This document shows, one piece after another, positions 3,428 to 62,971 of a DNA stretch of 64,000 bases. The stretch's first letter is position 1; the number at the start of each line of letters is the position of its first letter. The notes under the pieces were generated by a model. The model worked only from the letters and a program-made list of their open reading frames with translations, ran no database searches and was not told where the DNA came from. The translations under genes were made by a program, and so were the position numbers. The stretch comes from Dehalococcoidia bacterium. GTDB lineage: Bacteria; Chloroflexota; Dehalococcoidia; Bin125. Location: positions 36,475 through 100,474 of the forward strand of contig JAJDYG010000019.1 in NCBI GenBank assembly GCA_022822855.1, read 5' to 3'.

Positions 3428-3436
3428 CCGCCGACT

Positions 3437-3489
3437 TCCCTCTCCCTCCGCCGCGCGGGGGGAGATGTCACGGAGTGACAGAGGGGGGT
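3437..3489. repeat. Family B structured repeat, inverted orientation
   Basis: ggggggagatgtcacggagtgacagagggggg is the reverse complement of the family B core. Confidence 0.5.
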
Positions 3490-3495
3490 CCTCAG

Positions 3496-3834
3496 ATGCC
3501 GATGGTGTTCGGCTTCGCGACACACCGCCGCCAACAGCTCGAGGCGGAGTTCCTGCGTATGGCCGGCTCGATGCTCCAACTGGGAGCGGAACGATTCTGG
3601 CTGGCTGGCGACCTTGCCCGTGACGACGTCGGACCCGACTCCGAGCTGGAGTTGCTCATTGTTCACGAGACCGAGCGGCCGTTTCATCGCCGCTCAGATT
3701 TCTTCCAGACCCACCTGCGGCCGCAGGTCGGCACGACGTTCACTGTCTATACGCCTGAGGAGTTTGCCGAGCACTGCGAAACCGATCGGCTGATCATTGA
3801 GGCGACGAGTCTCAGCGATGAGGTGATCGTGTGA
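3496..3834 (+). CDS. Nucleotidyltransferase-domain protein (MntA-like antitoxin of HEPN/MNT pair)
   Basis: Motif AGDLARDDVGPDSELELLIV resembles GSxxRGxxxxxSDxD of minimal nucleotidyltransferases. It overlaps the downstream HEPN gene by 4 nt (GTGA). Confidence 0.55.
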   Translation: MPMVFGFATHRRQQLEAEFLRMAGSMLQLGAERFWLAGDLARDDVGPDSELELLIVHETERPFHRRSDFFQTHLRPQVGTTFTVYTPEEFAEHCETDRLIIEATSLSDEVIV

Positions 3835-7400: not shown

Positions 7401-7460
7401 TTCATGCCAATCTCCCGTCGGGTCGTAGCGTCACCAGAGTCAGATCGTTAATCTTTAGCT

Positions 7461-9886: not shown

Positions 9887-9920
9887 GCGTCGACCCCTTC
9901 GATAGTCGAGAACCCACAAC

Positions 9921-9965
9921 ATCGCCTGAACGCTGCGCCCCTCGCCGGGGCGGCGTTCAGGCGAT
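9921..9965. terminator. Long GC-rich hairpin between convergent STAS and aminotransferase genes, likely a bidirectional terminator
   Basis: atcgcctgaacgc ... gcgttcaggcgat forms a 13-bp stem. An inner stem (cgcccc..ggggcg) nests inside it. Confidence 0.5.
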
Positions 9966-14645: not shown

Positions 14646-14687
14646 GAGATGAGGTTATCGGGCATTGTTGGATTGGGAGGCGGGAGA

Positions 14688-14745
14688 GCCCCCCTCTGCC
14701 TTCGGCATCTCCCCCCGCTTGCGCGGGGGGAGATGGGAAAGGGAC
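14688..14745. repeat. Family B structured repeat
   Basis: cccccctctgccttcggcatctccccccgcttgcgcggggggagatggg is near-identical to the 12954 copy, so the two bracket the halogenase gene. Confidence 0.55.
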
Positions 14746-28434: not shown

Positions 28435-30537
28435 ATGTCCCTGGTTGCTCGTCCCTCGAGACGGTTTGGGACGCGCTCGGCGCAGCTCTTCTGGCGACTC
28501 CCGTTGATCGGCCGGGTCCGGGTACCTCGCAATCTCGTCCCGCTGCTGCTGGCCGGGGCCGTCGGCCTGGCGGCGGGATTCGCGGCCGTCGCGCTGACAG
28601 CCGTGGTCGACGGACTGACGATCGTCTTCGACGAGCTGGGCTCCATCCTCGAGGGTCTGGCCGGCGGTTGGACGTTGATGCTGGTTCCGGCGATCGCGGC
28701 CATCCCGGTCGCGTTCATCGTCTCCAGGATCGCCGCAGAGTCCCAGGGAGCGGGCGTTCCCTACGTCATGGTCGCGGTCGAGCGGGCAGGCGGCTTCGTC
28801 CGACCGATCATCGCGCCGGCCAAGCTGGTCGCGACCGGTTTCACCCTCGGCGGCGGCGGAGCAGCCGGTCGTGAGGGACCGATCGTCCTGATTGCCGCTT
28901 CGCTGGCATCGTCAATCGGACGCTTGACCAGGCAGCCGTCCGACATGCTCGTCCTCATGGTCGCTGCGGCCGCCGCCGGCGGCATCTCCGCGACCTTCAA
29001 CACGCCCATCGCGGGCACGTTCTTCGCGATGGAGGTCGTGCTGCGCCGCTTCAACGTGCGCAACTTCACGATCGTGGTCGTGTCGGCGGTCGTCGCCAAC
29101 ATCGTCGCGATCTCGTTCTACGGCGATTCCGCCGGCCTGGACCTGCCCGACCTCGACATCAACAGCAACTGGGAGCTGTTCCTCCACGCGATCGTCGGAA
29201 TCTCAGCGGCGATCGCCGGCATTCTCTTCGTCAGAACTCGCTTCTTCACCGAGGACGTCTTCGAGTTCCTCGGAGTCTCGCTTGGAGTCAGGCCGATCCT
29301 CGGACTGCTCGGCGTCGGTGTGCTCGCGCTCATCGAGACCAACATCCTCGGCTCCGGACTCGACCAGATCAGGGTCTTCGCCGAAGGCGAGACCGCCGTA
29401 TCCACGCTGGCGATCCTGATGGTGCTGAAGCTGATCGCCGCCTCGCTGACGATCGGTTCCGGAGCCTCGGGCGGCGCGTTTGCCCCGCTGCTCTTCGTCG
29501 GCGCGACCTTGGGCGCGCTGATGGGCGCGGGATTCGAGTCGGCCTTGCCCAGCATCGTCGGTCCGACCGGAACATACGTGGTTGTCGGCATGGCCGCCGT
29601 CTTCGCCGCCGCCGCCCGCGCGCCGTTGACCTCCCTCTTCATCGTCTTCGAACTCAGCGGATACTCATTGATCCTGCCCCTGATGACCGCCGTCGCCCTC
29701 GCCGCGGCGCTGGCCCAGCTCCTGACCCGCGACACGATCTACAACGTCCGCCTGCGCCGCGCCGGACTCGATGTCAGGGACGAGCGAGCCCCCTCGCCGC
29801 TGGACGAACTGACCGTCGCAACGACGATGCGCACCGACACGCCGATCGTCTCCAGGATGGCCACGATCCAGGACCTCGCCAACGCCATGAGCCAGTCGCG
29901 AGGCAACGTCGTCGCCGTCGCCGACCAACGCAACCGCTTCATCGGCCTCGTCACCGCTACCGACGTCGCCTCCGCGGTCGAGCGCCAGGAACTCAACCGG
30001 CGAGCCTTCGACCTGGCGGTCGTCGCCCCGATCTTCGTCCACCCCGACGACAACCTGCGCTACGCGCTCTCGCTGCTGGTCGACCACGATGTGCGCCAGC
30101 TCCCGGTCGTGGCGCGAGAGGACGAGACCCGCCTGATGGGCATGCTGACCCAGAGAGACGTGCTGCGCGAGGTCGCCCAACCGACCGACCGCGAGCCCGG
30201 TCAGCGAGCCGCGCCGGCGCCGGTCCGGCGGCTGGTCGGCGCAGTCGAGATCGAGGCCCGCGTGGAACCGGGATCGCAGGCCGAGGCGACGATGGTCTCC
30301 CAGCTTCCGCTGCCCGAGGCATCGGTGATCACCGCGATCCACCGCCGCGGCGAGGTCGTCATCCCGCGAGGCAGCGTCAAGCTCGAGGCGAACGACCTCG
30401 CCATCGTCCTCTCCGTCCCGCCCGAGGAGGCGGCCGTGCGCACGCTGTTCATCAATCACGCCTCGCAGACTCGCAACAACTGGTGGTTCCTGCCCCACGC
30501 GCCGAACACGCCCGACACCGACGCCAACGATCGGTAG
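28435..30537 (+). CDS. ClC family voltage-gated chloride channel/antiporter with C-terminal CBS pair and TrkA-C domain
   Basis: ClC motifs GAGVP (GSGIP-equivalent with Ser to Ala), GREGP and GAFAP. C-terminal CBS-like repeats and a TrkA-C-like end. Confidence 0.65.
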   Translation: MSLVARPSRRFGTRSAQLFWRLPLIGRVRVPRNLVPLLLAGAVGLAAGFAAVALTAVVDGLTIVFDELGSILEGLAGGWTLMLVPAIAAIPVAFIVSRIAAESQGAGVPYVMVAVERAGGFVRPIIAPAKLVATGFTLGGGGAAGREGPIVLIAASLASSIGRLTRQPSDMLVLMVAAAAAGGISATFNTPIAGTFFAMEVVLRRFNVRNFTIVVVSAVVANIVAISFYGDSAGLDLPDLDINSNWELFLHAIVGISAAIAGILFVRTRFFTEDVFEFLGVSLGVRPILGLLGVGVLALIETNILGSGLDQIRVFAEGETAVSTLAILMVLKLIAASLTIGSGASGGAFAPLLFVGATLGALMGAGFESALPSIVGPTGTYVVVGMAAVFAAAARAPLTSLFIVFELSGYSLILPLMTAVALAAALAQLLTRDTIYNVRLRRAGLDVRDERAPSPLDELTVATTMRTDTPIVSRMATIQDLANAMSQSRGNVVAVADQRNRFIGLVTATDVASAVERQELNRRAFDLAVVAPIFVHPDDNLRYALSLLVDHDVRQLPVVAREDETRLMGMLTQRDVLREVAQPTDREPGQRAAPAPVRRLVGAVEIEARVEPGSQAEATMVSQLPLPEASVITAIHRRGEVVIPRGSVKLEANDLAIVLSVPPEEAAVRTLFINHASQTRNNWWFLPHAPNTPDTDANDR

Positions 30538-30585
30538 CAGCCGCGCGTCAGCGCCGGTTCTCCGAGGCGGCCTAGACTCCGTTCC

Positions 30586-30996
30586 ATGCCGAGACTGTTC
30601 ACTCTCGCCCAGGCCCGACGATCTTTGCCGGCCATCGCGGCAGCGGTGATCGTGATGCGCAAGCGAGCGCTGCGACTGGACGAACTCTCGGCGCTGGCAG
30701 CGTCGATGCGGCGCACCACGAGCGCCGACGGCGACCCGGTGATCGGCGACGACTCGGAGATCCAGGCCGAAATCACCAAGCTCGAAGGCCAGATCGCCAC
30801 ACTGATCGAACACATCCAGCAGCAGGGCGTCGAGGTCAAGGACATCCGCCGCGGGCTGGTGGACTGGAGGGCCGAGCGGGACGGTCGCGAGGTCTACCTC
30901 TGCTGGCAATACGGCGAGCGCACGGTGAGCTGGTGGCACGAGCTGGCCGACGGCTTCGCCGGCCGCCAGCCGATCGTCGTCGCCGAGTGGACCTGA
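30586..30996 (+). CDS. DUF2203 family protein
   Basis: [15 protein letters not shown] ... [30 protein letters not shown] ... WHEL fits the DUF2203 consensus. Confidence 0.5.
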
Positions 30997-31006
30997 GACG
31001 CCGCTC

Positions 31007-31804
31007 GTGCCGCATCATCGAACGCTCGCCCCGCCCGAGCAGCGCCGTTCCTCCACAGGCGCCGCCGCGCCCGTCATTCATGCCGAACTGAGGCGTCATT
31101 ATGACGCCCTCTACGACCTGCTGCTCGACGGCCGAGCGCCGCGCGACGCCAGACCCGTCCTCGACGCGGGCAGCGGCGACGGCCTCGCGTTGACCGCCAT
31201 CACGCAGGGCACTCCCTTGCGCGGCGTCGGCGTCGACATCGCCTCGCCCGGACAGTGGCTGGGTCCGCCAGAGTGGGACGTGATCCAGGCGGACGTCCAG
31301 CGCCTGCCCTTCGCCGACGGCGTCTTTCACTCCGCCTTAATGGTCGACGTATTCGAATGGTTGCGTCATCCGATCGCCACGCTCGGCGAGATCGCCCGGG
31401 TCACGAACGGACCGATCCTCGTCGTCCAGACCGATTGGGAAGGCTTGTGGTTCCAGGCCGACGAGGCCGAGATCGGCCGCGACCTGGTCCGAGCCTTCAC
31501 CAAGGGCGCGCCCGAGCACCTGCGAAGCCGCATCAGCAGTTCCGCCGAGGCCGCCGGACTCGATGTCAAGGCGGTCTCCACGGTCTCGATCACGGCCGAC
31601 CGACTGGAGCAGGGCGCGCTCGCCTGGGATCTGCTGGAGTCGATCCGCCGCTACCTGGTGATCGAGTCGGCGCAGGTCCGCGCACGCAGATTCGACAACT
31701 GGCGATCCGAACTGCAACACGCCGCCGACGAGGGCCAGTTCGCCATGCTCGTCCGCCGCGTCGTGGCCCTGCTTGAGCGCAACCCCGCACGCAACCCCGC
31801 ATAG
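31007..31804 (+). CDS. Class I SAM-dependent methyltransferase
   Basis: VLDAGSGDGLALTAI (motif I) ... ADVQRLPFADGVFHSAL (motif II/III). Confidence 0.5.
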   Translation: MPHHRTLAPPEQRRSSTGAAAPVIHAELRRHYDALYDLLLDGRAPRDARPVLDAGSGDGLALTAITQGTPLRGVGVDIASPGQWLGPPEWDVIQADVQRLPFADGVFHSALMVDVFEWLRHPIATLGEIARVTNGPILVVQTDWEGLWFQADEAEIGRDLVRAFTKGAPEHLRSRISSSAEAAGLDVKAVSTVSITADRLEQGALAWDLLESIRRYLVIESAQVRARRFDNWRSELQHAADEGQFAMLVRRVVALLERNPARNPA

Positions 31805-31809
31805 AGGGT

Positions 31810-32700
31810 TCAGCGCGACGGGCCGTGGCGGTGCCCCTCGCTGTGCTCGTGATCCTCCATGTGCAACTGGAGCTCATCGGCCAGCAGCAGCGTGTGATGC
31901 TCGCGCGGCTCGCTCTCTTCGCCGTGGACTTCGCCGCGCGAGAAAATCGCTAGCTCACGGCCGAAGGTCCGGCGCAGCACGTCCTCGGTCAGCACATCCG
32001 ACGGATCGCCCTGGGCGATGATTCCGCCGTCCGATGAGTTGACGCAGATCACCTCGGCATAGTGCTCGATCACCGTCGACAGGTCGTGCGTGGTCATGAT
32101 CACGGACGTGCCCAGATCGGTCAGGTCGCAGAGCACGTCGAAGAGCTGATCGTCGGAGACCGCATCCAGCGCCGCCGACGGTTCGTCCAGCAGCAGGATC
32201 CGCGGCTGCCTCGCCAGCGCGCGCGCGATCAAGGCTCGCTTGCGCTGGCCGCCCGACAACTCCTGGATCTGGCGGTCCTGCAGGTCCTGCACATCCATCA
32301 TCGCGAGCGCCCGGTCCACCGCGATTCGATCCTCGCGCGTGTGAATCAACCGGCCCAGGCGTTGTCTCCAACTGAACTGGTAGCGGCCCATCTCGACCAG
32401 TTCCCGCACCGTGATCGGGAAGCGCCAATCGACGTTGCTGACCTGCGGCATGTAGCCGAGAAACGCGCGCGCGTCCTGGGGCGCCTGGCCGCCGACCAGC
32501 ACCTCTCCCTGGGCCGGAGAAATCAGCCCCGCGATCGTCTTGAGCAGGGTGCTCTTGCCCGAGCCATTGCCGCCGATGATGCCCGTGAAGATCCCGCCGG
32601 GGATGTTCAGCGAGAGGTCCTCGAACACCCGGACTCCCGGATACCCGACCGTCACGTTGCGAATCGCGACTTCCGCTCCTGCAACTGGGGCAATCGTCAT
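31810..32700 (-). CDS. ABC transporter ATP-binding protein (metal/Zn-Mn type) with His/Glu-rich C-terminal tail
   Basis: Walker A GGNGSGKST, signature LSGGQRKR, Walker B ILLLDEP, and C-terminal HGEESEPREHHTLL...HMEDHEHSEGHRHG. Confidence 0.6.
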   Translation of the reverse strand: MTIAPVAGAEVAIRNVTVGYPGVRVFEDLSLNIPGGIFTGIIGGNGSGKSTLLKTIAGLISPAQGEVLVGGQAPQDARAFLGYMPQVSNVDWRFPITVRELVEMGRYQFSWRQRLGRLIHTREDRIAVDRALAMMDVQDLQDRQIQELSGGQRKRALIARALARQPRILLLDEPSAALDAVSDDQLFDVLCDLTDLGTSVIMTTHDLSTVIEHYAEVICVNSSDGGIIAQGDPSDVLTEDVLRRTFGRELAIFSRGEVHGEESEPREHHTLLLADELQLHMEDHEHSEGHRHGPSR

Positions 32701-32758
32701 CGAGCGCTCCGACTAGTCGACCGGTCGGCGTTTGCCGGTCGCTGATAGCCTCAGATAC

Positions 32759-33655
32759 ATGCCCAGCGTAGTTGACGCGACCGGCACGGAACTCGATCTC
32801 GAGCGTCCCGCGCGCGAGGTCGTCTCGCTGGTGCCCTCGTTCACCGAGCTGGTCTGTTCGATGCGGCTGGGATCGCGGCTGGTTGGCGTGACCAAATTCT
32901 GCGTCGAGCCGGCCGAGGAAGTAACGCCGATCCGCAAGGTCGGCGGGACCAAGAATCCCGACATCGAGCGGATCATCCGGCTCAATCCGCAACTCGTCCT
33001 GGCCAACCGCGAGGAGAACAACGAGGAAGACGTCGATGCGCTGCGCCAGGCGGGCCTCGACGTCTACGTCGGGGACGTGCGAACCGCCGAAGAGGCGCTG
33101 GAGGAAGTCGACCGGGTCGGCAAGCTGCTCGGCGGCATCTCGATGAAGACCGCCGATTCGATCAACGAAGCGCTCGAGGAACAACGCCACGTAGAGCGAA
33201 TGCGGCCGCGAGTCCGGGCGGCGGCGCTGATCTGGCGCAACCCCTTCATGGCCGCGTCGGGCGACACCTACATCGGAGACCTGCTCAGGGTCTGCGGAGC
33301 AATCAACGTCTGCGAGGACGCGGGCCGAGGCCGCTACCCGCGCCTCTCGCTGACCGACCTGATCGCCCTGGACCCCGAGGTCATCCTGCTCCCCTCCGAG
33401 CCGTATCGATTCCGCGAACGCCACGCCCAGGAGTTGCTCGCCCAGCACGGCATGACCGCCGCCCGCGAGGGCCACGTCTACCTCTGCGACGGCCAGAACC
33501 TGACCTGGTGGGGAATCCGAACCGCAGCCGCAATTCACGAAGTCGCAACCCTCCTCGATCACGCCCGAGCCGGCTGGCAAGCCGAAGCCGCCATGACCCC
33601 CGAACTCCCCCCGGGCCTCAACCTCAACGTCACCCAACAAGACGTCGTCGAGTAA
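32759..33655 (+). CDS. Periplasmic-binding-protein fold substrate-binding protein (BtuF/TroA-like, cobalamin or metal-chelate type)
   Basis: VVSLVPSFTELVCSM ... PDIERIIRLNPQLVLAN ... LIWRNPFMAASGDTYIGDLL fits the PF01497-type pattern. No obvious signal peptide. Confidence 0.45.
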   Translation: MPSVVDATGTELDLERPAREVVSLVPSFTELVCSMRLGSRLVGVTKFCVEPAEEVTPIRKVGGTKNPDIERIIRLNPQLVLANREENNEEDVDALRQAGLDVYVGDVRTAEEALEEVDRVGKLLGGISMKTADSINEALEEQRHVERMRPRVRAAALIWRNPFMAASGDTYIGDLLRVCGAINVCEDAGRGRYPRLSLTDLIALDPEVILLPSEPYRFRERHAQELLAQHGMTAAREGHVYLCDGQNLTWWGIRTAAAIHEVATLLDHARAGWQAEAAMTPELPPGLNLNVTQQDVVE

Positions 33656-33671
33656 CAGCCCCTTGGACACT

Positions 33672-34110
33672 CCCTCCCCAGTCCCCGCTTCATGCGGAGC
33701 CTGCCCCCGACTTGTTCGGGGAACCCGTTCCCTCCGAGTCCGGCGCGGGCGACCACAAGGGTCGCCCCTACAAGGCTTCGATTCTGGATCACTGAAGACC
33801 TTCCCCTCCCGTCCGATGCCCCGTGCTTGACACGGGGCCCAGAGCAACCGACTCCGCCAGAGCGACTACGTCCCGCCTCACCTCGGACGCCGCGACCCAT
33901 GATCCCAGTCCCCGCTTCATGCGGGGACCCGCTCCCTCCCCCTCCCCCCTTCCCCCGTCCGATGCCCCGTGCTTGACACGGGGCCCAGACCTCCCAACTT
34001 CGCCAGGCCGACCAACGCCAGCCTCACCTCAACCGCCGAAACCCCTCCCTCCCCAGTCCCCGCTTCATGCGGAGCCTGCCCCCGACTTGATCGGGGGGAC
34101 CCGCTCCCGT
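33672..34110. repeat. Composite array of short palindromic repeat elements (families C and D) in a long non-coding stretch
   Basis: cagtccccgcttcatgcgg(ag/gg) occurs 3 times and cccccgacttgWtcgggg 2 times. An ~85-bp unit ccgatgccccgtgcttgacacggggcccaga...cctcacctc is duplicated in direct orientation at ~33812 and ~33958. Confidence 0.6.
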
Positions 34111-34211
34111 CCCTCTCCCTCCGCAAACCCCAACACACTCACACCTGCCCACGCAGAACACCAGTACATATACCATCAACCTCCAACACACGTTCACAGA
34201 TAGGACCGGCC

Positions 34212-34544
34212 ATGAGCACCCCGCAATACACCCCGCAAGCCATCCAGGACCGCTACTGGACAATCGCCAACGACCCCAACGAACGCGGCTACTCCCAGGT
34301 CCGGGCGCTCGACTCCCTCTGTCGGCTCCTCGACCTCTTCCCGCGAGGTCAGCAGCCCGCCCCGGATCCACCCCAACCCGAACAGATCGATCCCAACCTC
34401 CTCATCGCCGGCATGACCGACGCACAGATCGACGCCCTGATCGCCAGAGAACAAGCCGAAGCGGAAGCCAAGGCCAAGGCGGAAGCCGAGCGGACCGAGG
34501 AGGACGACGAAGCGTCCAGCGAGGAAGAGGATGATCCGCTCTAA
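34212..34544 (+). CDS. Hypothetical small protein with acidic/Ala-Glu-Lys-rich C-terminus
   Basis: 110-aa ORF with ATG at 34212. N-terminal half is protein-like (YWTIANDPNERGYSQVRALDSLCRLLDLFP). C-terminal EAEAKAKAEAERTEEDDEASSEEEDD. Confidence 0.3.
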   Translation: MSTPQYTPQAIQDRYWTIANDPNERGYSQVRALDSLCRLLDLFPRGQQPAPDPPQPEQIDPNLLIAGMTDAQIDALIAREQAEAEAKAKAEAERTEEDDEASSEEEDDPL

Positions 34545-34672
34545 TACCCCAACCGCGTTTTTTTCTCTCGCACGCACGCCCAGAACCCGACGACCAGCGG
34601 GATCCGGCCCCGCACACCCACTTCCTGCCTCTCCCAAACAGCGAGGTCTGGTCTTCCGCACCCTGCCTCAGA

Positions 34673-34740
34673 GGGACCCCCTCTGTCACTTCGTGACATC
34701 TCCCCCTTGGATCGGGGGAGAAAGGGGAGGGAGGGGTTTC
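34673..34740. repeat. Family B structured repeat
   Basis: ccccctctgtcacttcgtgacatctcccccttggatcgggggagaaagggg. Confidence 0.55.
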
Positions 34741-34749
34741 GGCGCTGTG

Positions 34750-34835
34750 GAGGTGAGGCTGGCGGTGGTTGGCCTGGCGGAGTTGGTTGCTCTGGGCCCC
34801 GTGTCAAGCACGGGGCATCGGGAGGGGGCGGGGGA
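34750..34835. repeat. Inverted copy of the ~85-bp family D element found at 33812 and 33958
   Basis: Its reverse complement reads ccgatgccccgtgcttgacacggggcccagagcaaccaactccgccaggccaaccaccgccagcctcacctc. Confidence 0.55.
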
Positions 34836-34856
34836 GGAGCTGTTGCGGGCTGATGG

Positions 34857-35687
34857 CTAGAGGGGGCGGCCGCTGTCGAGCATCAGGGCTCGGGCGGCGA
34901 TCTGGGCTGCCAGGACTGCTGCGGTGGTCAGGTAGAGGAGACCGGTAGCGGCCATCATCGAGCGCATCCTCGCCGTCGTCCAGGCCATCCAGCCGAAGAC
35001 CAGCGGGAGGATGAATCCGATCACGATGCGCAGCCAGAAGGTCGGATCGCCGGTCAGCGACTGGTCGCGTCCGCCGACCGGATCCTCGATCGACACGGCC
35101 AGGGCGACGCCGAAGAGGATGGCCTGGACCAGCACCACGATCAGGAATGCGGTCGTGATCTCCACCAGCGGCCGCGCGGGGAGCCGGGGCGTAACCAGGT
35201 ACCAGTGTCCGAGCGCCAGCCCGACGGCCGACAGCCCAAGCGCCAGCGCCCCGAAGGCGAGGCTAAAGACGGTCAGCGCTTCGGGCGAGCCGGCCAGCGT
35301 CGCCGCCGTCAGACCAAGCGCGGCCAGCGAGAGCCCGCTCAACAGCCATCCGATCCGCCGCGCCCAGGCGTCGCGGTCGGTGTACAGCGCGACGTTGTGC
35401 AAGACCGAGGCGGCCGTCAGCGCGGCCAGCGTCCAGACCAGCGCCTCGCGCGGTCCCGAACGCACGGCGAAGCCCTCGACCACGTCGCCATCGAGCGTGA
35501 ACGCCGTCCAGAATGCCAGGCCGAGGACGATCGGCACCATGATCGTCGTGGCGCGCACGAATCCCGGCGTGGCCTGTCCGCGCAGGTGGACGGCGTGCAT
35601 GACCAGCGCGCCGCCGACGCCCAGCTCGATCAGCAGGAGCAACAGCGTGTACGGCAGGGCTCCCGAGGCCGACACCGCGTCGTTCAC
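34857..35687 (-). CDS. Polytopic integral membrane protein, hypothetical
   Basis: About eight hydrophobic helices; no recognisable family motif. Confidence 0.4.
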   Translation of the reverse strand: MNDAVSASGALPYTLLLLLIELGVGGALVMHAVHLRGQATPGFVRATTIMVPIVLGLAFWTAFTLDGDVVEGFAVRSGPREALVWTLAALTAASVLHNVALYTDRDAWARRIGWLLSGLSLAALGLTAATLAGSPEALTVFSLAFGALALGLSAVGLALGHWYLVTPRLPARPLVEITTAFLIVVLVQAILFGVALAVSIEDPVGGRDQSLTGDPTFWLRIVIGFILPLVFGWMAWTTARMRSMMAATGLLYLTTAAVLAAQIAARALMLDSGRPL

Positions 35688-36449: not shown

Positions 36450-36456
36450 TGGGCTC

Positions 36457-36530
36457 GCCCCCCTCTGTCGCTCCGCGACATCCCCGCATCAAGTGCGGGG
36501 CAGGCTTCCCCCGCTGCGCGGGGGGAGAGT
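36457..36530. repeat. Family B structured repeat, two-hairpin subtype (extra ccccgcatcaagtgcgggg hairpin)
   Basis: cccctctgtcgctccgcgacatccccgcatcaagtgcggggcaggcttcccccgctgcgcggggggagag. Confidence 0.6.
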
Positions 36531-36536
36531 GTGATT

Positions 36537-37424
36537 CTAAGTTTGATCAGCTTTCCAGCCCAACGCCGAGGCCACCTCGGACGCTGCACGCGCGAAGTTC
36601 ATCGTGTAGATGTGCAGGCCCGGCGCTCCCAGCTCCAGCAGTTCCCGACCCAGCCTGGACGCGACCTCGACGCCGATCTCTCGCCGCTCGGCTGGGCTCG
36701 AAGCGCGCTCCAGGCGCTCACGGACCTCGGTCGGGAACTCGGTCGCGTTGAGCGCTGACATCCGCTCGATCCCCGCGACATTGGTGGGCGGCATGATTCC
36801 GGCGATCACCGGCGTGTCGACGCCTCGCGCGTCGAGCTGATTGACGAACTGTTCGTAGTACTCGGCTCGGTAGCCGAATTGCGTGATGGCGAAGTCCGCC
36901 TGGGCCAGTTTGCGTGTCTGGTGCGCCAGATCGGCCTCGACCGAGGCGGCCATCGGATGCCCCTCCGGATGCGCGGCGACGCCGATGTCCCAGTCTGCTC
37001 GTTTCCGGATGTATTGGACTAACTGTGCCGCGGTTTCGAAGGCAGGGAGCCGCCCAGAGTGAGGGAGCTGGGAGTTCGATTGCGGTTGGTCTCCGCGCAG
37101 AGCGAGGATGTTCTCGATGCCGTCCTGCCGGTATTCGTCGATGATCTGGGCGACCTCGTCGGGCGTATGAGCGACGCAGGTCAGGTGCGGCATCTCGGAG
37201 ACGCCGAGCGGCCCGTACTCGTCTCGAATCGCGCTGACCCAGTCGCGGGTCGGGCCTCGCGTCGTGCCGCCCGCGCCGTAGGTCACCGACATGAACTGTG
37301 GTCGATGCTGCGACAGCCTGGCCAGCGTCTGCCTCAGACGCTCCGCTCCGGCCTCGTCTCGCGGCGCCGAGAATTCGAAGGACAACGTTGGGCCCGCATC
37401 AAGCAAGTGCGTGATGCGGGCCAT
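36537..37424 (-). CDS. metF: 5,10-methylenetetrahydrofolate reductase
   Basis: LSFEFSAPRDEAGAERL ... FMSVTYGAGGTTRGPTRDW ... PEGHP ... FITQFGY are MetF family motifs. Confidence 0.7.
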   Translation of the reverse strand: MARITHLLDAGPTLSFEFSAPRDEAGAERLRQTLARLSQHRPQFMSVTYGAGGTTRGPTRDWVSAIRDEYGPLGVSEMPHLTCVAHTPDEVAQIIDEYRQDGIENILALRGDQPQSNSQLPHSGRLPAFETAAQLVQYIRKRADWDIGVAAHPEGHPMAASVEADLAHQTRKLAQADFAITQFGYRAEYYEQFVNQLDARGVDTPVIAGIMPPTNVAGIERMSALNATEFPTEVRERLERASSPAERREIGVEVASRLGRELLELGAPGLHIYTMNFARAASEVASALGWKADQT

Positions 37425-37432
37425 TGGGGAAG

Positions 37433-37513
37433 CCCCCCTCTGTCCGTACGGGACATCCCCGCATCAAGCAAGTGCGGGGTAGGGTTCCCCCCGCTGCGCG
37501 GAGGGAGAGGGAG
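37433..37513. repeat. Family B structured repeat, two-hairpin subtype; direct repeat of 36457-36530
   Basis: cccccctctgtccgtacgggacatccccgcatcaagcaagtgcggggtagggttccccccgctgcgcggagggagaggg. Confidence 0.6.
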
Positions 37514-37517
37514 ATTG

Positions 37518-37901
37518 TTAGATGCAGGAGCGGGCCTGGGAGGCACCGCCGCCAGCGGCGGTGTCGAAGCTCGAGCCGCAGGCGCAGGAGTGCGAGGCGT
37601 TCGGGTTCGAGATCGAGAAGCCCTGCTTCATCACATCGTCGATGTAGTCGACGCGCGAGCCGGCGATTAGCGGGGCCGATTCCTCGTCGACGAGGAAGCG
37701 GACGCCGTTCTTCTCGACGATCTGGTCGCCGGTTTCGGCGTCCATCGCGAGGGCCATGCCGTACTGGTAGCCGGAGCAGCCGCCGCCGACCACGAAGACG
37801 CGCAGCGCGCCCTCGGCGAAGCCCTTGTCCTCAAGCAGCGACTTGGCTTTCTCCGCCGCGAGGTCCGAAACGTCCAGCATCTCAGTCATCTGAAAGACCA
37901 T
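37518..37901 (-). CDS. Iron-sulfur cluster insertion/assembly protein (IscA/SufA/ErpA HesB family)
   Basis: RVFVVGGGCSGYQYGMALAMD and C-terminal CACGSSF are the three conserved Cys of A-type carriers. Confidence 0.65.
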   Translation of the reverse strand: MVFQMTEMLDVSDLAAEKAKSLLEDKGFAEGALRVFVVGGGCSGYQYGMALAMDAETGDQIVEKNGVRFLVDEESAPLIAGSRVDYIDDVMKQGFSISNPNASHSCACGSSFDTAAGGGASQARSCI

Positions 37902-39208: not shown

Positions 39209-39883
39209 ATGGTCACTGCGGAGCCCAGGCCGTCAGCATCACTCACGGGAACGACGCAGCCCAGGCCGCCTGTCCGTGGTGTCTTTCCGGTCCGATTGAC
39301 GCTGCCCTCCGACTGGGAGCTGACCGATGACGTACTCAGCGAAATGGGATCACTCAATGAACTGTGGCGATTCGAAGTCGACAAGTCCGGTTGTCTGCTG
39401 ATCATGTCGCCATCGTTCCCACTCAGCGGGATACGCGCCGGACGGATTCTCTCTCAGCTCGTTGTCTGGTCGGACGAGCACAATTCAGGTATCGTCGCCG
39501 ATTCCAGCTCGATGTTCCGATTGCCGAACGACGAGGTCAGGGTGCCTGACACAGCATGGATAAGCGATGAACGGTTGCAATCGGTATCTGAAGACCTGGA
39601 AGGAGCCTGGCACATCTGCCCGGATTTCGTCGTCGAAGTCCGTTCAGGATCTGACCAACTCGCAGATCTGCAGATCAAGATGGAGATGTGGGTGTCGCAG
39701 GGGGCGCGATTGGCGTGGCTCGTCGATCCGTACGAGGACGCGCTCTGGATCTACCGACCGGAGCAAGAGCCGGAGCGTCTGCAGCGGCCCGACAGAGTGA
39801 CAGCGACCGAGATCGCCGACGATCTGGTGATCGACTTCACCCGCATCTGGCCGGATCGGAAGGCTCGCGATGGTCACGGCTGA
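39209..39883 (+). CDS. Uma2 family (DUF820) PD-(D/E)xK endonuclease-like protein, copy 1
   Basis: LELTD..L.E..SLNE.W..E.D ... CPDFVVEVRS ... MEMWVSQGARLAWLVDP is the DUF820 pattern. Confidence 0.55.
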   Translation: MVTAEPRPSASLTGTTQPRPPVRGVFPVRLTLPSDWELTDDVLSEMGSLNELWRFEVDKSGCLLIMSPSFPLSGIRAGRILSQLVVWSDEHNSGIVADSSSMFRLPNDEVRVPDTAWISDERLQSVSEDLEGAWHICPDFVVEVRSGSDQLADLQIKMEMWVSQGARLAWLVDPYEDALWIYRPEQEPERLQRPDRVTATEIADDLVIDFTRIWPDRKARDGHG

Positions 39884-40550
39884 GCGATCTGAGGCAGCGG
39901 GCCTCGCGGCCACGGTCGCGTCAAGGGGAGCCTGGGAGACTGCGCCGCGGGCGTTTCCACTGCGCCTGCAATTGCCGCGCGACTGGGAGCTGACGGACGA
40001 GCGACTCCTGGAGTTGGGGTCGCTAAATGAAGAGTGGTACCTCGAGGCCGACTGCGAGGGAGGACTGTTCATGGCGCCGCCACCAGGACCGCTGAGCGGC
40101 AAGCGGGAGTTGCGGATCGGCTCGCAGATTCTCAACTGGAGTGACGCCGCCAAGAGAGGGGACGCATTTCCTTCGGCCACATTTCGGCTGGCAAATGGTT
40201 GGCGGCGCGCACCAGACGCGGCCTGGGTCAGCGATGAACGTCTCTCAGGGATCGCCGCCGACGATGAGGGGGTCTGGGCAGTTTGTCCCGACTTCATAGT
40301 GGAAGTGCGTTCAGCGAACGATCAACTGGGTCTCTTGCGAGAGAAGATGGAGATGTGGGTGTCGCAGGGGGCGCGATTGGCGTGGCTCGTCGATCCGTAC
40401 GAGGACGCGCTCTGGATCTACCGACCGGAGCAAGAGCCGGAGCGTCTGCAGCGGCCCGACAGCGTGACAGCGACCGAGATCGCCGACGATCTGGTGATCG
40501 ACTTCACCCGCATCTGGCCGGATCGGAAGGCTCGCGATGGTCACGGCTGA
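39870..40550 (+). CDS. Uma2 family (DUF820) endonuclease-like protein, copy 2
   Basis: Same family. Its 3' ~190 bp are identical to copy 1, and it overlaps copy 1 by the 14-nt ATGGTCACGGCTGA junction. Confidence 0.55.
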   Translation: MVTAERSEAAGLAATVASRGAWETAPRAFPLRLQLPRDWELTDERLLELGSLNEEWYLEADCEGGLFMAPPPGPLSGKRELRIGSQILNWSDAAKRGDAFPSATFRLANGWRRAPDAAWVSDERLSGIAADDEGVWAVCPDFIVEVRSANDQLGLLREKMEMWVSQGARLAWLVDPYEDALWIYRPEQEPERLQRPDSVTATEIADDLVIDFTRIWPDRKARDGHG

Positions 40551-41220
40551 GCGATCTGAGGCAGCGGTCCCCGCGGCGACGGTCGCTGCAAAGGAAGCCT
40601 GGGAAGTTACGCCGGAGGCGTTTCCGTTGCGCCTGCAGTTGCCATCCGACTGGGAGTTGACGGATGAGTGCTTCCTCGAACTGGGCCGCCTCAACGAGGG
40701 CTGGCGGATTGAAGCGGACGGCGAAGGAGGCCTGCTGATCATGGCGCCAACCGGTCCGATGAGCAGTGCCCGGGGAAGCAGCGCCCTGGCTCAAATCTGG
40801 GTCTGGAGCGACGCACACGAGTCGGGAATGGTCTTCGATTCGAGCGCCACCTTCCTGCTGGCCAACGGTGATCGCCGGATGCCCGATGCAGCCTGGATTA
40901 GCGACGAACGGCTGGCGGAGATTGCCGACGACGATGACATCATCTGGCGAATCTGCCCCGATTTCGTCGTCGAGGTGCGATCACAGTCCGACCGGCTGGC
41001 GCCTCAACAGGTGAAGATGGAGTTGTGGATCTCGCAGGGCGCCCGGCTTGCATGGCTTGTCGATCCGTTGGAGGAAACGGTCTGGATTTACCGACCGGGG
41101 CAAGAGCCGGAGCAGGTCGAGCGGCCCGAGAGCGTGACGGCGACGGAGATTGCGGATGATCTGGTGATCGACTTCACTCGGATCTGGCCGCAGCGGGATC
41201 AAGGGTCAGAGACCAGCTGA
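40537..41220 (+). CDS. Uma2 family (DUF820) endonuclease-like protein, copy 3
   Basis: Same family but more diverged. The junction with copy 2 is identical to the copy 1/copy 2 junction. Confidence 0.55.
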   Translation: MVTAERSEAAVPAATVAAKEAWEVTPEAFPLRLQLPSDWELTDECFLELGRLNEGWRIEADGEGGLLIMAPTGPMSSARGSSALAQIWVWSDAHESGMVFDSSATFLLANGDRRMPDAAWISDERLAEIADDDDIIWRICPDFVVEVRSQSDRLAPQQVKMELWISQGARLAWLVDPLEETVWIYRPGQEPEQVERPESVTATEIADDLVIDFTRIWPQRDQGSETS

Positions 41221-47982: not shown

Positions 47983-48108
47983 GCCATTGCCTCCGACCCT
48001 CGCGCCCGCTGTAGTGCATTCTTATCAGTTGGATAACACCAACACGGGGGTCATGCGCTCCCCTTTGCCTACCGAGGATCCACTCGGCCCTGCGTTGAGG
48101 CAGCGGCG

Positions 48109-48250
48109 CCGAGCGGGTCCCCGAACAAGTCGGGGACTGGGAGGCGAGCCGGTCTCCGAACGAGTCGGGGAACGGGAGCCGAGCGGGTCCCCGAACGGGT
48201 CAGGGAACAGGTGCCGAGCGGGTCCCCGAACGGGTCGGGGAGTGGGAGCC
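48109..48250. repeat. Four tandem copies of a ~35-bp unit, each a small hairpin (gtccccgaacRRgtcgggga)
   Basis: gagcgggtccccgaacgggtcggggaacgggagcc with minor variants, repeated head-to-tail four times. Confidence 0.6.
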
Positions 48251-48288
48251 GGGCGGACGCCCGCGTGAAGCGGGGAGCGGCCCCCTCC

Positions 48289-48323
48289 GTCGCATCGCGA
48301 CACCTCCCCCAAAGGGGGAGGTC
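48289..48323. repeat. Family B structured repeat (short form)
   Basis: ccccctccgtcgcatcgcgacacctcccccaaagggggag. Confidence 0.5.
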
Positions 48324-54061: not shown

Positions 54062-54092
54062 GCGTCGCCCCGTGCTTGACACGGGGCGACGA
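54062..54092. repeat. Partial family D hairpin (ccccgtgcttgacacgggg) downstream of nuoG
   Basis: Same palindrome as in the 33812, 33958 and 34795 copies. Confidence 0.45.
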
Positions 54093-61468: not shown

Positions 61469-61718
61469 ATGAGAAGACTAGTCGCGCCAGGTGGCCAGAG
61501 GAATCAGCTTGACGTCGGCCTCAAGGACCCACAGCCGCCCGCGAGCACCCACGTTCCAAGGTCGCCTCTGCTGGAGAGCAGCAGGCATCAACCCACAGCG
61601 ACTCGTTCAAGCAACCCTGGCAGATTTGGCCGAATCGGTTGCCCAAGACTCTCCTCAACAACCCGAACGCCTCCCTTTGCCAACCAGAGCGAGAGAGGAG
61701 GCGCGATGCGAACTGCTC

Positions 61719-62879: not shown

Positions 62880-62971
62880 TGGGCGGCATGCTAGGAGAAC
62901 GGAACCGCGCAAGACGCTCGGCTGGCGCCCCGCCGGCGGTGGGTTAGGATCGCAGTGACCGCGAACATCGA

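What the first reader, a model, noticed from the sequence alone, without database searches (positions are those of the whole stretch)
33656..34860. 1.2-kb repeat-dense region with a small acidic ORF flanked by inverted ~85-bp elements
A ~550-bp non-coding stretch downstream of the binding-protein gene is built almost entirely from palindromic units (cagtccccgcttcatgcgg.., cccccgacttgWtcgggg, ccccgtgcttgacacgggg). An ~85-bp unit occurs twice directly (33812, 33958) and once inverted (34750-34835) on the other side of a 110-aa acidic ORF (34212-34544), so the ORF is framed by terminal inverted repeats. This resembles a MITE-like or invertible cassette.
Basis: seen in the sequence. Interest (0 to 1): 0.55.

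Follow-up and report, generated by a model that had tools for sequence, protein, structure and literature searches.

The report
Repeat scar beside orphaned terminase-partner gene
The repeat-dense stretch is a nest of short hairpin repeats left where recombination between two repeat copies deleted a lone phage-type terminase gene, leaving behind its small conserved acidic partner gene, which is a real chromosomal gene and not cargo of a mobile or invertible cassette.

Summary
A ~91-nt unit occurs twice directly (33808-33898, 33954-34044) and once inverted (34744-34834, 85-87% complementary, extendable to ~118 nt) around a 110-aa acidic ORF (34212-34544).

The cassette interpretation is not supported. 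The ORF is a conserved Chloroflexota gene under purifying selection, with its own conserved promoter and a LexA-type GAAC-N4-GTAC box. Several orthologues lack the repeats entirely.

The ~91-nt unit is one arm of a 176-nt hairpin-dimer (REP/REPIN-like) element dispersed in at least 14 sponge-type Dehalococcoidia species.

In most relatives the small gene is paired with a lone chromosomal terminase large-subunit (TerL) gene. Two close relatives (L001, L050) carry TerL exactly where the window has its repeat stretch. The window is explained by a ~2.0-2.3-kb deletion whose crossover lies in a 41-nt direct repeat of the hairpin terminus (33953-33993).

The downstream inverted copy is shared, in the same orientation, with L050.

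The repeats themselves are ordinary. The apparently undescribed TerL/small-protein pair with LexA-type boxes, and its enrichment for this hairpin family, is the interesting part. Whether the small protein derives from a small terminase subunit is only weakly supported.

The parts
33670..33721 (+). Module A, copy 1: two small G/C-clamped hairpins (CCGC-TTCAT-GCGG and CCCCGA-CTTGT-TCGGGG)
   Evidence: 98% identical to copy 2 at 34045-34096. DNA fold -10.6 kcal/mol, z = -3.3. 99% identical to L001 3433-3574, which lies left of TerL.
33747..33767 (+). Hairpin GGGCGACC-ACAAG-GGTCGCCC, a separate REP-like family
   Evidence: 8-bp stem, -10.4 kcal/mol.
33808..33898 (+). Half-element copy 1: 31-nt hairpin terminus CCGATGCCCCGTGCTTGACACGGGGCCCAGA (33813-33843) plus a C-rich ~55-nt tail
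   Evidence: 97% identical to L001 3575-3679. The hairpin has an 8-bp stem and a 5-nt loop.
33906..33924 (+). Perfect version of hairpin H1 (CCCCGC-TTCAT-GCGGGG) between the two half-elements
   Evidence: In L001 and L050 the same unit precedes the full 176-nt element.
33954..34044 (+). Half-element copy 2. It contains the deletion junction, with the crossover inside the 41-nt repeat at 33953-33993
   Evidence: Sequence up to 33993 best matches the region left of TerL (L050rc 6743-6832, 96.7%). Sequence from 33994 best matches the region right of TerL (L001 5787-5888, 95%; L050rc 9105-9213, 94%).
34045..34096 (+). Module A, copy 2
   Evidence: Present at the same place upstream of the small ORF in L001 and L050.
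34156..34180 (+). Conserved operator/promoter: GAACACCAGTAC (LexA-type GAAC-N4-GTWC box) abutting TATACCATCAAC (-10-like)
   Evidence: The same architecture is found upstream of orthologues in L001, L002, L019, L043, L044, L046 and L050. The motif class is described in PMC4951493. The consensus sigma-70 scan found nothing here, so the promoter is inferred from conservation only.
34212..34544 (+). Small acidic protein gene (110 aa, pI 4.05): two short N-terminal helices, a Pro-rich linker, a long helix, and an acidic tail ending EEEDDPL
   Evidence: 29 homologues in Chloroflexota MAGs. Invariant YW..A..Y.VRALDSL.R.LDLFPR. pN/pS 0.2-0.47. AF2 secondary structure at pLDDT 69. Paired with TerL in relatives.
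34665..34729 (+). Triple-hairpin cluster (CAGAGGG..CCCTCTG, TGTCAC-TTC-GTGACA, TCTCCCCC-TTGGATC-GGGGGAGA) between the convergent small ORF and the membrane-protein gene
   Evidence: -16.8 kcal/mol, z = -2.9. Inverted copy at window 3435-3499, with variants at 2328, 36450, 37425 and 48272. Present after the ORF in L001 and L050.
34717..34834 (-). Inverted half-element (terminus 34791-34821 plus tail), the right 'arm' framing the ORF
   Evidence: Conserved at the same place and in the same orientation in L050 (L050rc 9904-9934). Absent from L001, where downstream synteny is broken at window ~34721.
54062..54092 (+). Solo copy of the same hairpin with an extended stem (CGTCGCCCCGTG-CTTGA-CACGGGGCGACG), lacking the CCCAGA tail; outside the finding
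48105..48280 (-). Tandem array of four 35-nt units of the CCCCGA..TCGGGG hairpin family (module A relatives); outside the finding

Best explanation
The region is an intergenic nest of several families of short G/C-clamped palindromic repeats (REP/BIME-like) around a bona fide small gene.

The '85-bp unit' is one arm (31-nt hairpin terminus plus tail) of a 176-nt element. That element consists of two such arms in inverted orientation, a REP dimer or REPIN-like unit, and is dispersed in sponge-type Dehalococcoidia.

The small acidic gene is the conserved partner of a lone chromosomal phage-type terminase large-subunit (TerL) gene. Both genes are preceded by LexA-type GAAC-N4-GT(T/A)C boxes.

In the window's lineage, recombination between two direct copies of the hairpin terminus removed ~2.0-2.3 kb containing TerL. 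One copy was the left end of a full element just 3' of TerL. The other was a half-element in the TerL/small-gene spacer. The deletion left the repeat-dense 'scar' (33656-34211) and an orphan small gene that keeps its own promoter and operator. The downstream inverted half-element is an older, separate repeat copy between two convergent genes.

Shown: the repeat anatomy, the gene's conservation, the TerL pairing, the deletion junction, and the shared orientation.

Inferred: SOS (LexA) control; that the hairpins act like other REPs (3'-end RNA structures and recombination substrates); and that the small protein works with TerL, possibly as a diverged small terminase subunit.
For: Repeats and their significance.

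Dispersal across species: the exact 26-mer occurs in 39 stretches from ~14 MAG species.

Arm/dimer relation: 18 of 19 full copies are 176-177 nt. The DNA fold is -68.8 kcal/mol with z = -9. Arms occur solo in many loci.

Real gene: 29 homologues, invariant motifs, pN/pS 0.2-0.47, and 7 representatives in 1.84 billion proteins.

TerL pairing: seen in L001, L043, L044, L045-47, L048/49, L050 and L019. TerL identity: PHROG 2 at E = 7.6e-28, with Walker A/B and nuclease acidic residues invariant in 33 homologues.

Deletion: L050 has the window's gene order on both sides plus TerL. Segment-by-segment best matches switch from 'left of TerL' to 'right of TerL' at 33993/33994, inside a 41-nt repeat.

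Operator conservation. Motif literature: PMC4951493. REP properties for comparison: PMC3733652.
Against: - The polarity (deletion rather than insertion of TerL) rests on parsimony. TerL is present at this locus in two relatives and at other loci in more distant ones, but no outgroup genome for this exact locus was available.
- The repeats make several alignments possible. I chose by best local identity.
- No direct evidence for LexA binding, transcription, or any REP-like function. The sigma-70 consensus and terminator scans found nothing.
- The small protein has no hit in Pfam, PHROGs, PADLOC, NCBIfam or PDB.
- Its similarity to small terminase subunits is one short motif at low probability.
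Confidence: 0.78

Rival explanations
1. Mobile cassette: the ORF is cargo of a MITE-like or transposon-like unit bounded by the ~90-nt terminal inverted repeats and moves as a unit.
For: The arms are real and long (91-118 nt, 85-87%). In L050 and L019 the outermost hairpin termini frame the whole TerL + small-gene pair. Small ORFs of the same superfamily lie next to this hairpin in five other loci recovered through the hairpin alone.
Against: - Orthologues in L002/L003, L043, L044 and L045-47 have no hairpin within 5-6 kb.
- L043, L046 and L051 have no framing inverted repeats.
- L001 lacks the right arm.
- The left arm is a deletion junction.
- The pairs sit at syntenic housekeeping loci across species, for example ECH-TerL-small-ClpB in L043 and L046.
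- No transposase family recurs near the hairpins.
Confidence: 0.05
2. Invertible segment: the 33946-34834 segment flips by recombination between its inverted arms, as a phase-variation or shufflon-like switch.
For: Long inverted arms. The same hairpin termini have demonstrably mediated an in-place inversion elsewhere: the 114-nt interior of the 176-nt element is flipped between orthologous loci L004/L006 and L012.
Against: - The ORF has the same orientation in the window, L050 and L001.
- The promoter and operator lie inside the segment together with the gene, so inversion would not change expression.
- No recombinase gene among the neighbours.
- The arms are only 85-87% identical.
- The scan for the inverted junction found nothing, but its control was also empty, so that result carries no weight.
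Confidence: 0.06
3. Functional cis-sites: the hairpin termini are recognition or cleavage sites (pac-like) for the TerL/small-protein pair, so their clustering at this locus is functional and not parasitic.
For: - The hairpin family has few exact copies in the sample (39 stretches with the exact 26-mer across the species-representative genomes of ~14 species), yet it lies within a few hundred bp of TerL or small-ORF genes in at least 5 independent loci.
- A full element lies immediately 3' of TerL at two independent loci (L001/L050 and L019/L048).
- The termini stay 100% identical while interiors diverge to 68-80%.
- The hairpin always points toward the small ORF.
- CGTC-type REPs have no known mobilising enzyme (PMC3733652).
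Against: - Half of the TerL/small pairs seen have no hairpin nearby.
- Most hairpin copies lie beside unrelated metabolic genes.
- Only 1 of 120 TerL proteins reads into a hairpin.
- The enrichment estimate is rough, because per-genome censuses were not possible.
- Recent spread plus gene conversion could also keep the termini identical.
Confidence: 0.12
4. Toxin-antitoxin-like pair: the small acidic protein is an inhibitor (antitoxin or DNA mimic) of the TerL nuclease/ATPase, and the window keeps an orphan 'antidote' after the toxin was lost.
For: - The upstream small gene overlaps TerL by 14 nt in L019 and L051-53.
- Strongly acidic disordered tail.
- Orphan small genes persist without TerL (window; L002; type-B loci).
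- Stress-type operator.
Against: - The common arrangement is divergent, which is unusual for such pairs.
- No PADLOC or Pfam support.
- The position and the short motif fit a small terminase subunit at least as well.
Confidence: 0.1

Closest known systems
REP elements, REP dimers/REPINs and BIME-type mosaics (E. coli BIMEs; Pseudomonas REPINs, PMC3116915; GTAG/CGTC-tagged REP superfamilies, PMC3733652)
   Same: - Short extragenic palindromes with an 8-bp stem and a 5-nt loop.
- They occur solo, as inverted dimers with a spacer of fixed length, and in mixed clusters.
- They lie mostly after gene 3' ends and between convergent genes.
- Some copies are inserted in frame inside genes.
- They are substrates for rearrangement.
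   Different: - The spacer (114 nt) is longer than the 20-100 bp typical of REP dimers.
- The terminal tag is variable (CGAT, CGTC, CGTT, CGAC), not a fixed GTAG or CGTC.
- The stems are G/C throughout, whereas CGTC families have A/T at the first stem positions.
- Few exact-match copies were found, where REP families typically have tens to thousands (per-genome counts were not measured).
- No RAYT gene was seen, though none was searched for genome-wide.
Bacterial MITEs (e.g. Neisseria Correia elements, ERIC/IRU, RUP)
   Same: Element of about 176 bp with ~31-nt terminal inverted repeats, able to fold into one long hairpin, non-coding and dispersed.
   Different: No target-site duplication, empty site or parent insertion sequence was identified. 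Copies at orthologous sites persist across species with perfectly conserved ends.
Phage terminase small/large subunit pair (TerS of Pfam Terminase_2 with PBSX-type TerL)
   Same: - In relatives the small gene lies next to TerL. In L019 a small acidic ORF of this superfamily, and in L051 a non-acidic small ORF only weakly similar to it, occupies the terS position upstream and overlaps TerL by 14 nt.
- The architecture (helical N-terminus, long helix, flexible tail) is compatible with a TerS.
- The invariant VRALDSLCRLLDLF lines up with the TerS motif LRALELLGRHLGMF.
   Different: - No profile-library match.
- The motif similarity has low statistical support (hhalign probability 4-23%).
- The usual arrangement is divergent.
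- The pair stands alone among housekeeping genes, with no portal, capsid or other phage genes.
- Up to three pairs occur per genome.
- The window has the small gene only.
Invertons / invertible promoter switches
   Same: A DNA segment bounded by inverted repeats. The 176-nt relative of these repeats has inverted in place at least once in evolution.
   Different: No invertase nearby, the promoter and the gene lie together inside the segment, and only one orientation is seen.
LexA (SOS) operators of the Gram-positive type, GAAC-N4-GTTC
   Same: A box of this form lies in conserved positions upstream of both the small gene and TerL. It is perfect in L019 (GAACTGGTGTTC). The motif is reported for Firmicutes, Actinobacteria and Dehalococcoides (PMC4951493 and the 2002 study it cites).
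   Different: The window's copy has one mismatch (GAACACCAGTAC). No binding data exist, and no canonical SOS gene of this organism was available for comparison.

Membership tests
REP / REPIN | Short palindromic unit (stem about 8-9 bp, loop 4-5 nt) | tested here: met
   CCCCGTG(C)-TTGA-(C)ACGGGG folds with an 8-bp stem and a 5-nt loop in all three window copies.
REP / REPIN | Many dispersed, mainly extragenic copies within a genome and in related species | tested here: inconclusive
   39 stretches in ~14 species and 4 copies in this 64-kb window. Only exact matches to a 26-mer were counted and no whole-genome census was possible, so the copy number may be low for a REP family.
REP / REPIN | Conserved terminal tetranucleotide tag (GTAG or CGTC) | tested here: not met
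   The bases outside the stem vary: CGAT (commonest), CGTC, CGTT, CGAC. The window's solo copy at 54062 does carry CGTC on both sides.
REP / REPIN | Inverted dimers with a spacer of conserved length that can fold as one hairpin | tested here: met
   18 of 19 full copies are 176-177 nt. L001 copy: -68.8 kcal/mol, z = -9.
REP / REPIN | Cognate RAYT (Y1) transposase gene flanked by the repeats | not tested
   No recurrent transposase-like family was seen within 600 bp of the hairpins in 39 loci, but genomes were not searched for RAYT genes.
MITE | Terminal inverted repeats on a short non-coding element | tested here: met
   31-nt termini, 0-2 mismatches in most copies and up to 5 in a few, on 176-nt elements.
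MITE | Target-site duplications and presence/absence polymorphism | tested here: inconclusive
   No direct duplication was evident at the ends. Copies at orthologous sites are retained across species, and no empty site was found in the sample.
   Orthologues without hairpins: L002/L003, L043, L044, L045-47. L001 lacks the right arm. The left arm is a deletion junction.
Inverton / invertible switch | Both orientations of the segment observed | tested here: not met
   Same orientation in the window, L050 and L001. The metagenome scans for the inverted junction and for the control were both empty, so population-level inversion is untested.
Inverton / invertible switch | Inversion uncouples a promoter from a flanking gene; dedicated recombinase nearby | tested here: not met
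   The promoter/operator (34156-34180) and the ORF are both inside the arms. The neighbours are an ABC transporter, a binding protein, a membrane protein and MTHFR.
Terminase small subunit (Pfam Terminase_2 and other TerS families) | Significant match to a TerS profile or structure | tested here: not met
   No hit in Pfam, PHROGs, NCBIfam or PDB profiles. Foldseek lists a TerS only at E = 7.7. hhalign to a confirmed TerS (L054) gives E = 0.011 at probability 3.8%.
Terminase small subunit (Pfam Terminase_2 and other TerS families) | Encoded next to, typically just upstream of, the large subunit gene | tested here: inconclusive
   Met in relatives: divergent in L001, L043, L044, L046, L048 and L050, and upstream-overlapping in L019. 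Not met in the window itself, where TerL is deleted.
LexA-regulated (SOS) gene | GAAC-N4-GTTC-type operator in the promoter region, conserved among orthologues | tested here: met
   Window GAACACCAGTAC at 34156. Equivalent boxes occur in L001, L002, L019 (perfect), L043, L044 and L050, and upstream of TerL. Motif class per PMC4951493.
LexA-regulated (SOS) gene | LexA binding / induction by DNA damage | not testable with these tools
   Needs EMSA or expression data.

The most novel reading that the evidence does not exclude
The lone TerL and its small acidic partner form a domesticated or selfish, DNA-damage-induced terminase module, and its DNA targets are the dispersed hairpin termini. On this reading the hairpin elements would be pac-like sites, or passengers mobilised or recombined by a terminase-type nuclease rather than a transposase. 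That would give a mobilising or processing enzyme to a class of REP-like repeats that currently has none. The window would then show an orphan recognition subunit sitting among three of its sites.
Probability: 0.1. Interest if true: 0.8.

Novelty: new member of a known kind. Interest (0 to 1): 0.4.

Why it matters
The repeat nest itself is ordinary bacterial genome furniture. It is, however, a clean base-resolved example of short hairpin repeats deleting a gene and marking rearrangement points in uncultivated sponge symbionts. It also shows how such repeats can mimic a 'cassette'.

The more useful by-product is a lead. A lone, catalytically intact terminase large subunit is paired with a lineage-specific small acidic protein behind LexA-type boxes. 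The TerL genes occur in up to three copies per genome, the pairs sit at stable housekeeping loci, and they are enriched for one hairpin-repeat family. I found no description of this in the searchable literature. If the pair acts on the hairpins, it would connect phage packaging enzymes with REP-type repeats.

Tried and rejected
- Rfam on the window and on 12 loci with full elements: no family.
- tRNA/tmRNA scan: none.
- Sigma-70 and intrinsic-terminator consensus scans of 33500-35000: nothing.
- Small protein against Pfam, PHROGs, PADLOC, NCBIfam and PDB profiles: only noise.
- AlphaFold model: pLDDT 69, pTM 0.28. The Foldseek PDB hits are meaningless (E of 1.9 or worse).
- Exhaustive profile search: only 7 representatives, none annotated.
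- Homologues of the L051 terS-position ORF: unannotated.
- Look-up of the window's own protein in the contig index: not on record, so the source genome could not be fetched.
- Metagenome scans for an inverted-orientation junction and for the normal junction as control: both empty, hence uninformative.
- The one perfect GAAC-N4-GTTC palindrome in the window (15299) lies inside a coding region and says nothing about LexA.
- The idea that TerL genes generally end inside the hairpin: rejected, 1 of 120.
- The idea that TerL/small-gene pairs are generally framed by inverted repeats: rejected for L043, L046 and L051.
- Literature searches for lone or domesticated terminases in Chloroflexi, SAR202 or sponge symbionts: nothing relevant.
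- Phage and viral-contig collections: TerL at most 27% and 39% identical; the small ORF and the hairpin are absent.
Full report
**1. The observation**

- A 91-nt unit lies at 33808-33898 and 33954-34044 (81% identical).
- An inverted copy lies at 34744-34834 (87% and 85% complementary). With an adjoining 28-nt arm, the inverted duplication reaches about 118 nt.
- CAGTCCCCGCTTCATGCGG occurs three times.
- CCCCCGACTTGWTCGGGG occurs twice.
- CCCCGTGCTTGACACGGGG occurs three times here and once at 54068.

Shuffled sequence gives 0.02 matches to the last 19-mer against 4 observed.

The ORF 34212-34544 encodes 110 aa with 25 D/E, 9 K/R and pI 4.05. Of the 556-nt spacer, 68% lies in named repeat modules. 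The spacer is strongly C-rich on the + strand, with C 256 against G 117.

Each unit folds as a G/C-clamped hairpin better than shuffles do, with z between -2.1 and -3.3.

**2. The repeats are genome-wide families, not a local structure**

The 64-kb window has similar palindromes in about eleven intergenic gaps: 1031, 2266-2371, 3431-3499, 12948-13010, 14683-14729, the present region, 36450-36541, 37425-37521, 48105-48315 and 54062.

The exact 26-mer around the CCCCGTG...CACGGGG hairpin occurs in 39 stretches from about 14 Dehalococcoidia/Chloroflexota MAG species. Many have sponge-type isolate names.

Lining up all copies shows two forms.
- A full element has two 31-nt termini (CCGATGCCCCGTGCTTGACACGGGGCCCAGA) in inverted orientation. 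It is 176-177 nt long in 18 of 19 copies. It can fold into one long hairpin: -68.8 kcal/mol, z = -9.
- Solo arms consist of a terminus plus a ~55-60-nt tail.

The window's '85-bp units' are solo arms.

Rfam has no match for the window or for 12 loci with full elements.

Anatomy and distribution match REP elements, REP dimers (REPINs) and BIME-type mosaics. The shared features, as described in PMC3733652 and PMC3116915, are:
- an 8-bp stem and a 5-nt loop;
- inverted dimers with a fixed-length spacer;
- positions after gene 3' ends;
- neighbours that are mostly ordinary metabolic genes.

They differ from the tagged REP superfamilies in three ways. They lack a fixed GTAG/CGTC tag, they have all-G/C stems, and few exact-match copies were found.

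**3. The ORF is a real, conserved gene with its own control region**

- It has 29 homologues of 108-137 aa in Chloroflexota MAGs.
- The N-terminal motif YW..A..Y.VRALDSL.R.LDLFPR is invariant, and the tail ends in acidic ...EDEPP or ...EDDPL.
- pN/pS is 0.2-0.47.
- The family is narrow: 7 representatives at 50% identity among 1.84 billion proteins.
- It has no match in Pfam, PHROGs, PADLOC, NCBIfam or PDB.
- The AlphaFold model is of low confidence (pLDDT 69). It shows helices at 8-19, 26-41, 61-66 and 70-97, followed by a disordered acidic tail.

Upstream, orthologues from different species share GAAC-N4-GT(T/A)C abutting TATACCATCAAC, and then an AGGA ribosome-binding site. The window has this at 34156-34180.

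GAAC-N4-GTTC is the LexA site of Firmicutes and Actinobacteria, and it was reported for Dehalococcoides (PMC4951493, citing Fernandez de Henestrosa et al. 2002). SOS control is therefore a reasonable inference, but it is not shown.

**4. The gene's usual neighbour is a lone terminase**

In L001, L043, L044, L045-47, L048/49 and L050, a 467-519-aa gene lies ~200-770 bp away on the opposite strand. The gap is ~200-230 bp where no repeats intervene. In L045 and L047 this gene is split into two ORFs.

In L019 a more distant member of the small-protein superfamily lies upstream of it and overlaps it by 14 nt.

The larger gene is a terminase large subunit.
- It matches PHROG 2 at E = 7.6e-28, and also Terminase_3/6N.
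- Walker A (GYGGAMGGGKT), Walker B (LIDEAG) and the nuclease acidic residues are invariant across 33 homologues of 55-90% identity.
- At least 231 homologues exist, and every hit that carries a source name is Chloroflexota. Up to three lie on one chromosome.
- The neighbours are housekeeping genes (ClpB, DnaJ, PurS, SAICAR synthase, enoyl-CoA hydratase), not phage genes.
- Known phage TerLs are at most 27% identical. Viral contigs reach at most 39%.
- The small gene and the hairpin occur in neither collection.
- A conserved GTAC-N4-GTTC box also lies ~65 nt upstream of TerL.

**5. What happened in the window**

L001 matches window 30225-33993 at 96.8%. It then carries ~2 kb with TerL that the window lacks, and resumes at the repeats upstream of the small ORF.

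L050, read on its reverse strand (written L050rc), has the window's gene order on both sides, with TerL present. That order is CLC channel, DUF2203, methyltransferase, ABC ATPase, binding protein ... small ORF, 276-aa membrane protein, MTHFR, Fe-S protein, aminotransferase.

The module maps of the three loci are as follows.
- L001 and L050: ... H1' (the perfect form of the CAGTCCCCGC... hairpin), [full 176-nt element], TerL(-), box, arms, H1 H2 (the CAGTCCCCGC... and CCCCCGA... hairpins), promoter, small ORF.
- Window: ... H1', [terminus + arm tail], H1 H2, promoter, small ORF.

Segment-wise best matches confirm the switch.
- Window 33657-33993 matches the region left of TerL (L001 3433-3679 at 97-99%, then 3680-3762 at 89%; L050rc 6743-6832 at 96.7%).
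- Window 33994-34211 matches the region right of TerL (L001 5787-5997 at 95-96%; L050rc 9105-9324 at 94-96%).
- A 41-nt stretch (33953-33993) is common to both sides.

The base-by-base alignment shows identity through ...CCCAGACCTC and divergence immediately after it.

The simplest reading is a deletion by recombination between two direct copies of the hairpin terminus. The lost segment corresponds to L001 3763-5779 (2,017 bp) or L050rc 6833-9104 (2,272 bp).

TerL is present at this locus in two relatives and at other loci in more distant species. I therefore take its presence as ancestral. This polarity is an inference from parsimony.

**6. The downstream inverted arm**

L050 has it at the same position and in the same orientation (L050rc 9904-9934), so it predates the deletion.

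L001 lacks it. There, synteny ends at window ~34721 and different genes follow (PhyH, SBP_bac_5). L001 is therefore the rearranged genome.

The arm lies between the convergent 3' ends of the small ORF and the membrane-protein gene, which is a typical REP position.

**7. Testing the cassette and inversion ideas**

Against a mobile cassette:
- Orthologues in L002/L003, L043, L044 and L045-47 have no copy of the hairpin within 5-6 kb.
- L043, L046 and L051 have no framing inverted repeats.
- The left arm is a deletion junction.
- The pairs occupy syntenic sites across species.

Against a switch:
- Only one orientation is seen in three genomes.
- The promoter is inside the segment.
- No recombinase gene is nearby.

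The termini are nevertheless recombinogenic. Between the orthologous loci L004/L006 and L012, the flanks are 82.8% identical over 2.4 kb. The 114-nt interior of the full element aligns without gaps at 72.8% only when flipped. In the flank-matched orientation it aligns at 53.7%, with gaps. The asymmetric outer bases stay with the flanks. This is an in-place inversion within the 25-nt hairpin repeats.

Rare inversion of the window's segment therefore cannot be excluded. My scan for the junction it would create was empty, but the positive control was empty too.

**8. An unexpected association**

Five loci recovered only through the hairpin pattern carry a small ORF of 104-123 aa directly downstream of a solo arm: L008, L010, L025, L026 and L038. 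L019 has one 1.4 kb away.

These ORFs share the motif (G/A)Y.R(V/L).AL..(L/I/V).R..(D/E)L and the C-terminus E(E/D)D(D/E)P(L/W) with the window's protein. Most have a GAAC-N4-(G/A)TAC box in between. In every case the hairpin points toward the ORF.

A full element also lies immediately 3' of TerL at two independent loci, L001/L050 and L019/L048.

The exact-match scan found few copies of the hairpin (39 stretches across ~14 species), and there are a handful of such genes per genome. On that basis I expect well under one such coincidence in 39 loci. This is a rough estimate, not a computed statistic.

Three explanations are possible:
- an insertion or retention bias at these loci;
- repeated TerL loss that leaves the same kind of scar, as in the window;
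- a functional link between the hairpin and the TerL/small-protein pair.

Against a strict functional link, half of the pairs lack hairpins. Most hairpins also lie by unrelated genes, and only 1 of 120 TerL proteins reads into a hairpin.

**9. What the small protein might be**

Its position fits a small terminase subunit. It is usually divergent from TerL. In L019 it lies upstream of TerL and overlaps it. In L051-53 a non-acidic small ORF occupies that upstream position.

The closest viral contig (L054) has a confirmed Terminase_2 small subunit upstream of its TerL (E = 5.6e-25). That protein contains KLRALELLGRHLGMF.
- The motif matches L051's terS-position ORF, QLRAWEVMGRDIGMF (pairwise E = 2e-5).
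- It is also the best-aligned stretch to the window family, RVRALDSLCRLLDLF (hhalign E = 0.011, probability 3.8%).
- The wider superfamily profile aligns to the L051 ORF over 41 columns (probability 23%, E = 9e-4).

This is a lead, not a demonstration. An inhibitor or antitoxin-like role is an alternative.

**10. Verdict**

The units are REP/MITE-type repeats, a new family of a known kind. The 'cassette' is an accident of repeat accumulation and a repeat-mediated deletion around a conserved gene.

The finding as stated is of modest interest. The lone TerL / small acidic protein module with LexA-type boxes, and its tie to one hairpin family, appears undescribed in the literature I could search. 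It deserves follow-up.

Noticed in passing
L004 1963-2138 and L006 3406-3581 versus L012 6924-7099: At orthologous sites (flanks 82.8% identical over 2.4 kb) the 114-nt interior of the 176-nt hairpin element is inverted relative to its flanks. It aligns without gaps at 72.8% when flipped, against 53.7% otherwise. The asymmetric outer bases stay put, so this is an in-place inversion within the 25-nt hairpin repeats.
   Followed up: yes
L008 4106-4447 (-), L025 6442-6783, L038 6119-6490; L044 3778-3873: The palindrome family CCCTCTCCC..GGGAGAGGG is inserted in frame in the linker of the type-B small proteins, where it reads LPLPLGEGRGEGP (expanded to (LP)n in L038). Copies also lie inside the L044 TerL gene region. 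This matches the in-frame intragenic REPs described in PMC3733652.
   Followed up: partly
L001, L043, L044, L046, L048, L050 (divergent); L019 (upstream-overlapping): A lone, catalytically intact TerL gene is paired with a small acidic protein behind GAAC-N4-GTTC-type boxes. The pair lies among housekeeping genes. One 3.1-Mb chromosome carries three TerL homologues, at least two of them paired. In L051-53 the upstream-overlapping small ORF is a non-acidic protein only weakly similar to this family. No phage structural genes are nearby, and I found no description in the searchable literature.
   Followed up: partly
L045 3286-4775 and L047 913-2402 versus L046 3294-4775: The TerL at the ECH/ClpB locus is called as two ORFs (340 + 157 aa) in two assemblies but as one intact 493-aa gene in a third. 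This is either a frameshift/pseudogene or an assembly error.
   Followed up: no
L025 5315-6783 versus L001 6001-7528: A type-B small ORF in L025 sits divergently beside PhyH and SBP_bac_5 (93% and 85% identical to L001's). These are the same genes that follow the type-A small ORF in L001. Small-ORF loci seem to be rearrangement points.
   Followed up: no
L019 about 7300-7345: A hairpin terminus upstream of the small ORF is interrupted by another palindrome nested in its loop (CCCGTGCTTGCCTGCCCCGCACTTGATGCGGGGACACGGG).
   Followed up: no
L027 602-1785: A solo hairpin terminus is followed by a box GAACGTATGTAC and a 333-aa ORF with an HTH_23 domain (E = 6.6e-5). This is another box-preceded gene next to the hairpin.
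   Followed up: partly
window 48105-48280: A tandem array of four 35-nt units, each containing a CCCCGA..TCGGGG-type hairpin. It is followed by another hairpin cluster at 48272-48315.
   Followed up: no
window 54062-54092: A solo copy of the main hairpin with an extended 12-13-bp stem and CGTC on both sides, just after a stop codon. It lacks the CCCAGA tail.
   Followed up: no
window 39607-41220: Three tandem repeats of ~667 bp (79-94% identical) correspond to tandem Uma2-family (putative restriction endonuclease) genes (E of about 1e-28). L050 has two at the same place.
   Followed up: partly
window 60341-62912: Two tandem paralogous genes (~1.4-kb repeat, 77-85% identical) encode RCC1-repeat proteins.
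   Followed up: partly
window 33656-34211: Strong strand asymmetry of the repeat stretch: C 256 against G 117, with GC skew down to -0.48. The skew reverses over the inverted arm.
   Followed up: no
L005, L009, L013, L020, L029, L037, L041: Luciferase-like monooxygenase genes are the commonest neighbours of the hairpin (7 loci). This may only reflect how many such paralogues these genomes have.
   Followed up: no
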